Shown here: piece after piece, positions 1,942 to 3,853 of the stretch
Layout of the letters: every line of letters begins with the position of its first letter
Numbering within the stretch: the first letter of the stretch is position 1
NCBI RefSeq assembly: GCF_006345805.1
Contig: NC_043004.1
Coordinates: 39,556,001-39,620,000, forward strand
Direction: 5' to 3'
Source: Octopus sinensis
Taxonomy: Eukaryota
Length of the DNA: 64,000 bases
Program-made: the position numbers

Positions 1942-3853
1942 TAGTAGTAGTAGAATCTGAAACAGCTCAGCACAAATACCTTCACATACACACATCGCGA
2001 TAGACAAGCAATAATTAAATGAGTGATACACACCCACCTAAAGTACACGCAAGCGTATGAGATAATTAAACATCTTCAGTTAAGTATACATACACGCATT
2101 CAGCACTTTTAAGCAATCGCAGACAATCAGCATCTGGAACCGACTTGTCAAACAGTACTCTCCCCGCCGCACACTCACACACCTCTGCCCACCCATTTAA
2201 TGACATGGGAAGTGTGAAGTGTAGTAACAATAAACACGATTCCGGTCGTCCACGTCACCATTGGGAATGTACAGTCAAGTACTCTTCCCTACCTCGCAGG
2301 TCATCCTACATCTCTTCATACACACGCAACCACAGGCCTGTTGATATACTTGTATATATACATGCATGCATATGTGTATATATATATGTATGTATATATT
2401 AAATGAAAGAATGGAGTTGAACGACGATTTAACAAAATTCCTTTATTCTCGACATATGTTTCGAAGGCTGCATATTCCTAATTTCGAAGGAATAAGGGGT
2501 GCATTATGCTGCCTTCTCATCAGGAGAGACAAGGAACTTATGTCAGCATCAAGATGAACAAAAACTCTTAGATGACTGCCCACTCGGAGTCCATTATGGA
2601 CTCCGAGTGGGCTGTCTGGACTCCGAGTGGGCAGCCATCTAAGAGTTTTTGTTCATCTTGATGCTGACATAAGTTCCTTGTCTCTCCTGATGAGAAGGCA
2701 GCATAATGCACCCCTTATTCCTTCGAAATTAGGAATATGCAGCCTTCGAAACATATGTCGAGAATAAAGGAATTTTGTTAAATCGTCGTTCAACTCCATT
2801 CTTTCATTTATTTGTATTAAAAAAACACAAATTTCCACACGAAAGCACGTGATCTCTGCCCTTGGCATGTAGCTTCAACCGTATTTTTCTGACGTGAATT
2901 TGCTACCCAGGTATCGGTTAACCGAATTATCCATACTAGGATAATTCATTCAACTACTTAAATATGCATGTGTGTATATATATATATATTATATATATAT
3001 ATATATATATATGATTAACAAGGATATACAGGTGTAAATTCAGTACAGCCGTTTCAAGCGATTCCTTTAATTGATTAATAAAAACATTACATTATTGAAA
3101 GAAGCCGTTTTCGTCAGATGACTGCATAGAATTCTAACACAAGGGGAAAATCATTTATATTTTATTCACCTATCCTGGATTCTGCACTTCGGAAATATTA
3201 TAGAAAGTATTTTTGTATTTTTATACAAAGTGCATGTCTGAACAACCAAGAACAGAACTCTTCACTAAGTTGGGTCGTGTTATCTGCCCACACAGCCAGA
3301 ATATCAAGTGCAAGCACGTCTGCACAGAGTTTGATATTCATCTGATATTGTTTGGGTATGCAAATTAGATCGCCCAAACAAGGTGCCTAAATTTAAGTAC
3401 CTAATTCAAATGAATCTTAATAAATATATATATATATATATATATACAGACATATATATAGTGTGTGTTTGTGTATTACTTGTTTTGGTCATGAAACTGC
3501 GCCCATGCTAGGGTACCGCTCTGTTGAATTTTTAATCGAAATTATCGACCTCCAGTACTTATTCTATCAGTCTCTTTTACCGAGAGATGGAAACACACAA
3601 ACACCGGTTGTCAAGCGGAGGGTGGGGGTAAATACATGCACGGTTACACAAACACACACACACACACACACACACATATCTATATACGACGGGTTTCTTT
3701 CACTTTTTGTTTACCAAATCCACTCACAAGCCTCTGGTTGGCCCGAGGCTATAGTAGAAGACATTTGTGCAAAGTGCCACGCAGTGGGAATGGGACTGAA
3801 TCCAGAACCAGTGTCGTTGGGAAGCGAGTTTCTTATCACTTTGCACGCCTGCA

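What the first reader, a model, noticed from the sequence alone, without database searches (positions are those of the whole stretch)
2578..2632. Shared apex signature in two unrelated palindromes: tight hairpin, then a restart duplication
Seen: palindrome 1 has a 1-nt apex (2595), then the first 16 nt of the right arm repeat after 4 extra nt (2597-2612, 2617-2632). Palindrome 2 has a 2-nt apex (49424-49425), then ~28 nt repeat (49429-49456, 49458-49484). The two families share no sequence, yet have the same geometry on the same side. Inference: a mechanistic footprint such as cDNA fold-back self-priming followed by abortive synthesis and re-priming, or hairpin-end resolution during integration.
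Basis: partly seen in the sequence, partly recalled or inferred. Interest (0 to 1): 0.75.

Follow-up and report, generated by a model that had tools for sequence, protein, structure and literature searches.

The report
Copied filler at two palindrome centres
Two unrelated DNA palindromes each carry, on one side of a very tight centre, an extra 20-29-base copy of the arm's first bases, which looks like the scar of a copying enzyme that folded back, stalled and started again when the palindrome was made.

Summary
Palindrome 1 has 194-nt arms (2400-2593 / 2617-2810). They are identical except for 1 base and an extra 20-nt copy (2597-2616) of the right arm's start, beside a 3-nt centre. Palindrome 2 is much larger than reported, about 2 kb (48550-50580). 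It has a 2-nt centre and an extra 29-nt copy (49426-49454) of the right arm's start. The two share no sequence.

Short non-microsatellite tandem duplications are rare in the window (4 loci in 64 kb), so two at palindrome centres is not chance.

In both palindromes the tandem copies differ from each other at least as much as the arms do. The filler was therefore most likely made together with the palindrome, not later.

Only palindrome 1 carries a hammerhead: Rfam type I, full core, 21.7 bits, below the curated cut-off. Palindrome 2 gave no hammerhead hit, but its arms begin exactly at base 1 of a weak tRNA-like head.

DNA-level template switching is nearly as likely (0.3). With n=2 and no other genome copies or reads available, the mechanism is open. 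"Same side" carries no information.

The parts
2400..2593 (-). Palindrome 1, left arm (the unit read on the minus strand, 5' end at the centre)
   Evidence: 194 nt, 99% complementary to 2617-2810
2594..2596 (.). Palindrome 1 centre (3 nt; exact symmetry point 2595)
2597..2616 (+). Extra 20-nt copy (X1) of the first 20 nt of the right arm. It is equally the reverse complement of the last 20 nt of the left arm.
   Evidence: 19/20 to the left-arm end, 18/20 to 2617-2636
2617..2810 (+). Palindrome 1, right arm
2681..2765 (+). Type I hammerhead motif with a 50-nt insert in helix II and a 2-bp helix III capped by a tetraloop. The mirror copy lies on the minus strand at about 2447-2527.
   Evidence: RF00163, 21.7 bits, E=0.0028, model 1-45 of 45, below the gathering score of 34; motif scan; the RNA fold keeps helices I and II.
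48550..49423 (-). Palindrome 2, left arm (874 nt). It includes a later repeat insertion at about 48690-48905.
49424..49425 (.). Palindrome 2 centre (2 nt)
49426..49454 (+). Extra 29-nt copy (X1) of the first 29 nt of the right arm
   Evidence: 26 matches, 2 mismatches and 1 indel to the left-arm end; 24 matches, 4 mismatches and 1 indel to 49455-49483
49455..50580 (+). Palindrome 2, right arm (about 1.12 kb). It includes an (AAT)n tract and a roughly 400-nt TG/TA-type microsatellite at about 49990-50390.
49455..49528 (+). Weak tRNA-like head that starts at the first base of the right arm. The mirror copy is at about 49350-49423 on the minus strand.
   Evidence: ARAGORN calls it only at 80% stringency; nhmmer E=0.0038 to another tRNA-like head at 26990-27051. 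No call at default settings and no Rfam tRNA hit.

Best explanation
Both loci are 5'-to-5' inverted duplications. Their junction was made by a poorly processive copying enzyme working at the 3' end of a retroelement cDNA.

Proposed steps (inferred, not shown):
1. Reverse transcription reached the RNA 5' end.
2. The cDNA 3' end folded back on 1-3 bases and was copied for 20-29 nt. This made the inner tight hairpin.
3. Synthesis then left the template and began again at the template's terminal base, or jumped onto the end of a second cDNA primed from the other target strand. This made the full second arm.
4. In palindrome 2, synthesis ran on past the element into about 0.9 kb of flanking DNA, so the flank was duplicated in inverted order too.

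The 23-31-nt asymmetry left at the centre also acts as a spacer, which should make the palindrome less prone to hairpin extrusion.

Shown: the anatomy, the age relation between filler and arms, the hammerhead core in palindrome 1, and the start of palindrome 2's arms at base 1 of a tRNA-like head. Inferred: that the enzyme was a reverse transcriptase, the order of the steps, and the spacer effect.
For: - Anatomy.
- Co-formation. In palindrome 1 the two tandem copies differ at 2 of 20 positions while the remaining arms differ at 0 of 174. In palindrome 2 the tandem copies are 24/28 identical while arm identity per 60 columns is 0.78-0.98. The filler is therefore not younger than the palindrome.
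- In palindrome 1 each copy differs from the left-arm end by one private base, as expected if both were copied from that strand.
- Retroelement link, palindrome 1: a type I hammerhead with the full core.
- Retroelement link, palindrome 2: ARAGORN at 80% stringency calls a tRNA-like gene at 49455-49528, starting at the arm's first base. There is weak similarity to another tRNA-like head at 26990-27051.
- In both, the sense strand runs outward from the centre, which fold-back at a cDNA 3' end predicts.
- Passages read in PMC8557442: Penelope-like elements often carry an inverted 5'-truncated copy abutting the 5' end, and they favour microsatellites.
- Passages read in PMC11167929: a Penelope-like element protein cleaves and extends both target strands in vitro.
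- Passages read in PMC7058536: L1 insertion can bridge head-to-head inverted duplications of flanking DNA.
Against: - There are only two cases.
- No other copy of either family is in the window, and none could be fetched (0 hits in genome contigs). So it is unknown whether the centres are the families' true 5' ends, or whether single copies already carry the tandem repeat.
- Palindrome 2's arms hold about 0.9-1.1 kb with two microsatellites and unique DNA. That needs the extra assumption of run-on synthesis into the flank.
- The tRNA-like call is weak: none at default settings, none on the left arm at 80%, and no Rfam tRNA hit.
- The hammerhead is below Rfam's cut-off (21.7 against 34), and palindrome 1's centre is not at the ribozyme cleavage site.
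- I read no clear target-site duplication and no microhomology at the restart point.
- No reverse transcriptase or endonuclease domain was found in 12 of the 73 ORFs of at least 110 aa that I scanned.
- A third 20-nt tandem duplication lies beside a plain (TA)21 tract, which suggests a DNA-level process can do this.
Confidence: 0.4

Rival explanations
1. DNA-level inverted duplication. A stalled fork or broken end switched template onto the complementary strand (fold-back, or microhomology-mediated break-induced replication), copied back 0.2-1 kb, then returned. The filler comes from an extra short round of template switching by a low-fidelity polymerase. The repeat content of the arms is incidental, or a pol III-type head acted as the stall site.
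For: - Palindrome 2's arms contain microsatellites and unique DNA well beyond any short element.
- In palindrome 1 both of the only 2 substitutions lie in the three copies of the 20-mer (60 of 408 nt, about p=0.02 if mutation is uniform). That fits error-prone synthesis at a junction.
- A third 20-nt tandem duplication (18/20) abuts a hairpin-prone (TA)21 tract at 46361-46440.
- It explains two unrelated sequences with one process.
Against: - It does not predict that palindrome 2's arms start at base 1 of the tRNA-like head, unless such heads stall forks.
- It does not predict that both palindromes are 5'-to-5' for their RNA motifs.
- I read no microhomology at the switch points.
Confidence: 0.3
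2. Later stabilising repair. A once-perfect palindrome was cut at its centre and rejoined by polymerase-theta-type end joining. That process adds a few untemplated bases and a snap-back copy of the end. Copies with such a spacer survive because perfect palindromes are unstable.
For: - Passages read in PMC4912351: polymerase theta alternates untemplated addition, snap-back copying in cis and copying in trans. It gives short complementary tracts and short duplications at junctions.
- Folding shows that the duplication turns a loop of 1-2 nt into a 23-nt loop or a 29-nt bulge.
Against: - The tandem copies are at least as diverged as the arms in both palindromes, so the event is not clearly later.
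- Neither arm has lost a base at the centre, whereas PMC4912351 reports deletions in both its in vitro and cell systems, more often in cells.
- The inserts (20 and 29 nt) are longer than the median of 7 bp and the 15-nt snap-back example in that paper.
Confidence: 0.12
3. The tandem repeat is native to each family's 5' end. One arm is simply 20-29 nt shorter through truncation or slippage.
For: In palindrome 1 the tandem copies are more diverged from each other (2 of 20) than the arms are (0 of 174), which could mean the repeat is older than the palindrome.
Against: - It needs the same accident in two unrelated families, with the short arm ending exactly at a repeat boundary both times.
- In palindrome 2 the repeated piece would duplicate the first 29 nt of the tRNA-like head.
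- There are no other copies to check.
Confidence: 0.1
4. Assembly or consensus error at a hairpin.
For: Palindrome 1's arms are almost identical, and hairpins are hard to sequence. Reads could not be checked.
Against: - Palindrome 2's arms and its filler have diverged by about 10-20%, so it is an old, real structure.
- Both palindromes sit inside unique flanks.
- A clean 20-nt insertion with two base differences is not a typical consensus error.
Confidence: 0.04

Closest known systems
Penelope-like element insertions (inverted 5'-truncated copy abutting the 5' end; hammerhead in the pseudo-LTR)
   Same: Head-to-head inverted copies. A hammerhead of the minimal helix III kind in palindrome 1. 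A microsatellite next to the insertion. A protein shown to extend both target strands (PMC8557442 passages; PMC11167929 passages).
   Different: No reverse transcriptase or GIY-YIG ORF, and no pseudo-LTR similarity, was shown here. Both arms are the same length. The passages I read describe an optional 30-40-bp tail at an outer end, not a copied filler at the centre.
Metazoan non-LTR retrozymes (tandem 170-400-nt units with a type I hammerhead)
   Same: Unit size of 194 nt. Type I hammerhead with a 2-bp helix III and a tetraloop, as described for invertebrates (PMC7229834 passages).
   Different: The two units are inverted, not head-to-tail. No tandem copy is in the window. The unit boundaries are not at the ribozyme cleavage site.
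Polymerase-theta end joining with templated insertions (snap-back copying)
   Same: A few unmatched bases, then a tract complementary to the adjacent end, then the join (PMC4912351 passages).
   Different: The inserts here are longer (20-29 nt). No bases are lost from either arm. I read no microhomology.
L1 twin priming and L1-mediated fold-back inversion
   Same: Retroelement-linked inverted structures. Head-to-head duplication of flanking DNA bridged by an insertion (PMC7058536 passages). Twin priming is recalled from memory; I read no paper on it.
   Different: In the L1 cases read, a single L1 insertion bridges two sister chromatids and the duplications span megabases. Here the element itself is duplicated and the arms are 0.2-1.1 kb.
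P nucleotides from off-centre hairpin opening (V(D)J recombination, hAT excision) - recalled, not read
   Same: A palindromic extension of one end at a junction.
   Different: P tracts are a few bases long, not 20-29. No transposase or recombination signal is seen here.

Membership tests
Hammerhead ribozyme type I (Rfam RF00163) | Conserved core (CUGANGA, GAAA, cleavage triplet UH) with helices I, II and III in type I order | tested here: met
   Palindrome 1 only. One search aligns the full model (1-45) with every core base matched. One search finds it on both arms. In palindrome 2 there is no hit at E<=10 and no motif.
Hammerhead ribozyme type I (Rfam RF00163) | Score at or above Rfam's gathering cut-off (34 bits) | tested here: not met
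   21.7 bits. No hit in the whole-window gathering scan. The shortfall comes with a 50-nt insert in helix II.
Hammerhead ribozyme type I (Rfam RF00163) | Self-cleavage | not testable with these tools
   Needs in vitro transcription.
Metazoan non-LTR retrozyme | Head-to-tail tandem units, each with a hammerhead | tested here: not met
   The two units are inverted. There is no further copy in the window.
Metazoan non-LTR retrozyme | Unit of about 170-400 nt | tested here: met
   194-nt arm. Size range taken from PMC7229834 passages.
Penelope-like element (or its non-autonomous derivative) | Reverse transcriptase plus GIY-YIG endonuclease ORF, or sequence similarity to a known pseudo-LTR | tested here: inconclusive
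   No Pfam family in the 12 ORFs scanned, out of 73 ORFs of at least 110 aa. No pseudo-LTR library was available.
Penelope-like element (or its non-autonomous derivative) | Inverted copy abutting the 5' end; insertion near microsatellite or AT-rich DNA | tested here: met
   Head-to-head geometry. A TA/TG microsatellite touches the left arm of palindrome 1. These features are suggestive, not specific.
tRNA-derived SINE (palindrome 2 head) | tRNA-like head with A and B boxes | tested here: inconclusive
   ARAGORN finds none at default and one at 80% stringency on the right arm only, 49455-49528. No Rfam tRNA hit. Box-like motifs were seen by eye. nhmmer gives E=0.0038 to 26990-27051.
tRNA-derived SINE (palindrome 2 head) | Many dispersed copies with target-site duplications | tested here: not met
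   No other copy in the window. I read no duplication at the arm ends. Genome-wide copy number could not be tested.
Foldback or MITE-type DNA transposon | Terminal inverted repeats with a target-site duplication and multiple copies | tested here: not met
   I read no target-site duplication and found no other copies. Genome-wide status is unknown.
Templated insertion of alternative end joining | The insert is a copy of sequence next to the junction, with or without a few untemplated bases | tested here: met
   Microhomology at the join was not evident.

The most novel reading that the evidence does not exclude
A fixed three-step scar marks an undescribed way in which retroelement cDNAs prime their own second strand in this animal. 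The steps are a fold-back on 1-3 bases, an aborted 20-30-nt copy, and a restart at the template's terminal base. The process builds palindromes that can take in up to a kilobase of flank. If the scar recurs genome-wide, it would be a readable in vivo record of reverse-transcriptase template jumping and a source of new long hairpin loci.
Probability: 0.2. Interest if true: 0.6.

Novelty: new variant of a known kind. Interest (0 to 1): 0.38.

Why it matters
Inverted and palindromic insertions of Penelope-like and other retroelements are well documented, but how they form is not settled. A junction scar that records fold-back, abortive copying and restart would give a sequence-level handle on that step. 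It could be tested by a simple genome-wide census. It would also show how new long hairpins arise and survive; such hairpins are possible sources of small RNAs and of fragile sites. On two cases it is only a lead.

Tried and rejected
- Rfam, whole window. The gathering scan gave 0 hits. The E-value scan was swamped by TG/TA microsatellites scoring as miRNA families. I treat these as false.
- Rfam, on the palindromes. Searches gave only generic hairpin/miRNA look-alikes. One search (palindrome 2 head) gave no tRNA hit. One search (palindrome 2 left arm) gave no hammerhead hit. By eye, palindrome 2 has a CUGA-type core followed by GAAA, but no proper helix III or cleavage triplet, so I rejected it.
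- Other copies. blastn and nhmmer in the window found none apart from a weak head match at 26990. Two exact-pattern scans of genome contigs (bacteria and archaea only) gave 0 hits.
- Wider symmetry around palindrome 1: only microsatellite matches.
- Other complex palindromes. I inspected four (23757-23968, 47607-47742, 62789-63096, 19995-20292). All have diverged or spaced centres and none has an apex duplication. That makes 2 of 6 inspected with the scar. Not inspected: 3924-4205, 45575-46016, 56836-57025, 60265-60548, and the many low-complexity self-complementary tracts listed.
- Pfam on 12 of the 73 ORFs of at least 110 aa: nothing.
- Target-site duplications: none convincing by reading.
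- Literature. Searches turned up no description of a copied filler at the centre of retroelement palindromes. That is a limit of those three searches, not proof that none exists.

Full report
**What is there**

Palindrome 1 has arms 2400-2593 and 2617-2810 (194 nt, 99% complementary) with 23 nt between them. Read outward from the centre, the arms are identical except for one base. In addition, the right arm is preceded by an extra 20 nt (2597-2616) that repeat its first 20 nt. The extra copy also pairs with the end of the left arm. That pairing gives the inner 21-bp hairpin with a 1-nt apex at 2595.

Palindrome 2 has the same layout. There is a 2-nt centre (49424-49425), then an extra 29-nt copy (49426-49454), then the right arm proper from 49455.

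**Palindrome 2 is much larger than reported**

- The self-complementary match runs from 48905 to 49990 as one alignment.
- Unique sequence further out is also mirrored. 48550-48619 matches 50507-50576 at 86%, and 48604-48697 matches 50373-50467 at 82%.
- Nothing beyond about 48550 and 50580 is mirrored.
- The arms are therefore about 874 and 1122 nt long.
- They contain an (AAT)n tract, a TG/TA-type microsatellite and unique DNA.
- The left arm holds a roughly 200-nt repeat that the right arm lacks. It is 89% identical to 46443-46605, so it is probably a later insertion.
- The right arm's microsatellite has grown to about 400 nt.

**More than chance**

The two palindromes share no sequence; only 9-mers match, at E=4.3. 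A scan of the window for ungapped tandem duplications (period 15-40, at least 85% identity, not microsatellite) found 4 loci in 64 kb. One is palindrome 1's centre. Palindrome 2's is missed because it has an indel. At that density, one such duplication starting within a few bases of a given point is expected less than once in a thousand tries.

Of six complex palindromes I inspected, only these two have a tight centre and only these two have the one-sided copy. Four further candidates and the many microsatellite self-complements were not inspected.

**Age of the filler**

- Palindrome 1. The two tandem copies differ at 2 of 20 positions. Each differs from the left-arm end at 1 of 20. The other 174 nt of the arms differ at none.
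- Palindrome 2. The tandem copies show 24 matches, 4 mismatches and 1 indel. The arms are 78-98% identical per 60 columns.

In neither case is the filler younger than the palindrome. This argues for formation in the same event, or earlier, and against a late repair.

In palindrome 1, both of the only two substitutions fall in the three copies of the 20-mer (60 of 408 nt). That is about p=0.02 under uniform mutation, and it hints at error-prone synthesis at the junction. The evidence is thin.

**What the units are**

Palindrome 1:
- A search of 2655-2790 alone gave Rfam Hammerhead_1 at 2681-2765: 21.7 bits, E=0.0028, full model, every core base matched, with a 50-nt insert in helix II.
- This is below Rfam's cut-off of 34. 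The hit did not appear in the whole-window scan or the 421-nt scan.
- My own motif scan finds a type I hammerhead only on the two arms of palindrome 1, and nowhere else in the window.
- The RNA fold of the arm keeps helices I and II.
- Helix III is 2 bp with a tetraloop. This is the form described for invertebrate retrozyme hammerheads (PMC7229834, passages).

Palindrome 2:
- No hammerhead hit.
- Its arms begin with a tRNA-like head. ARAGORN finds nothing at default settings. At 80% stringency it calls 49455-49528, exactly the first base of the right arm. It made no call on the left arm at that stringency.
- Rfam's tRNA model did not hit.
- nhmmer links the head weakly (E=0.0038) to another tRNA-like head at 26990-27051.

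In both palindromes the strand carrying the motif runs outward from the centre, so both are 5'-to-5'.

**Mechanism**

The same structure can be described in two ways. One is 'arm start repeated after a tight hairpin'. The other is 'one arm's end extended by a short snap-back copy, then joined to the other arm'. Either way it needs a polymerase that primed on 1-3 bases, copied 20-29 nt, let go, and resumed at the terminal base of a template.

I favour a reverse-transcription origin (0.4), for three reasons:
- The centre of palindrome 2 sits at base 1 of a pol III-type head, which is where a cDNA ends.
- Palindrome 1 carries a hammerhead of the kind found in Penelope-like elements and retrozymes.
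- Penelope-like elements are known for inverted copies abutting the 5' end (PMC8557442, passages), and a Penelope-like element protein extends both target strands in vitro (PMC11167929, passages).

For palindrome 2, the fold-back strand must have kept copying into the flank. A related outcome is known in human tumours, where an L1 insertion bridges head-to-head duplicated flanks (PMC7058536, passages).

The main rival (0.3) is DNA-level template switching at a stalled fork or broken end:
- It explains the non-element DNA in palindrome 2's arms and the clustered mismatches.
- It also fits a third 20-nt tandem duplication beside a (TA)21 tract at 46361-46440.
- It does not predict the centre at base 1 of the head.

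Three other readings are less likely:
- Later centre breakage with polymerase-theta joining (PMC4912351, passages). This fits the form of the filler but not its age, its length, or the intact arm ends.
- A tandem repeat native to each family.
- Assembly error.

Folding shows that the filler turns a 1-2-nt loop into a 23-nt loop or a 29-nt bulge. That should slow hairpin extrusion, so survival bias may add to the pattern. This last point rests on general knowledge of palindrome instability. I saw the 'center-break' papers only as a search listing.

**The 'same side' claim**

A head-to-head palindrome is symmetric. 'Right side' therefore only has meaning relative to the flanks. With two cases, agreement has probability 0.5, and I give it no weight.

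**Limits**

- No eukaryotic genome collection and no reads were on hand. The two scans of genome contigs found nothing.
- The true 5' ends of both families are unknown.
- I read no supplements. For the 2026 preprint on animal retrozymes as Penelope-like derivatives I saw only the abstract and outline.
- Papers on synthesis-dependent end joining (PMC2943611, PMC9303309) were seen only in the listing.
- Twin priming, P nucleotides and the original centre-break paper are recalled, not read.

**Verdict**

This is a real, non-random junction scar shared by two unrelated palindromes, and it formed with them. It fits known kinds of events (retroelement inverted insertions, templated junction fillers). 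However, the passages I read and my three searches did not turn up a description of this particular scar at palindrome centres. It is a modest lead that a genome-wide census would settle quickly.

Noticed in passing
46361-46440: A 20-nt tandem duplication (18/20) lies directly against a (TA)21 tract. It is followed at 46443-46605 by a repeat that is 89% identical to 48703-48878. This is a third short duplication beside a hairpin-prone sequence.
   Followed up: partly
48690-48905: A roughly 200-nt repeat is present in the left arm of palindrome 2 but not in the right arm. It is probably a later insertion next to a microsatellite.
   Followed up: partly
35682-36179, 36300-36532, 38183-38604: A SINE-like unit of about 184 nt occurs as partial tandem copies and as inverted copies. 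79-nt direct repeats (36221-36299 and 36533-36611, 95%) flank the inverted copy. My scan found no hammerhead there.
   Followed up: partly
26985-27060: A single tRNA-like SINE-type head is weakly similar to the head of palindrome 2. ARAGORN calls nothing there until stringency is lowered to 60%.
   Followed up: partly
23757-23968; 47607-47742; 62789-63096: Three other complex palindromes have diverged or spaced centres. They may be old foldback or MITE-like structures.
   Followed up: partly
11410-11714 / 14093-14396; 20604-20994 / 23985-24359; 51429-51753 / 54035-54350: Pairs of inverted copies of dispersed repeats lie 2-3 kb apart. Similar peptide strings recur in ORFs across the window, which points to an abundant SINE-like family.
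   Followed up: no
10268-10974; 24959-25777; 43145-43606; 49990-50580; 50763-51486: Long tri- and tetranucleotide microsatellites and a minisatellite. They produce long spurious ORFs and many false miRNA-family hits in the E-value Rfam scan.
   Followed up: no
812-887: A 38-nt tandem duplication (33/38) lies in otherwise unique sequence.
   Followed up: no
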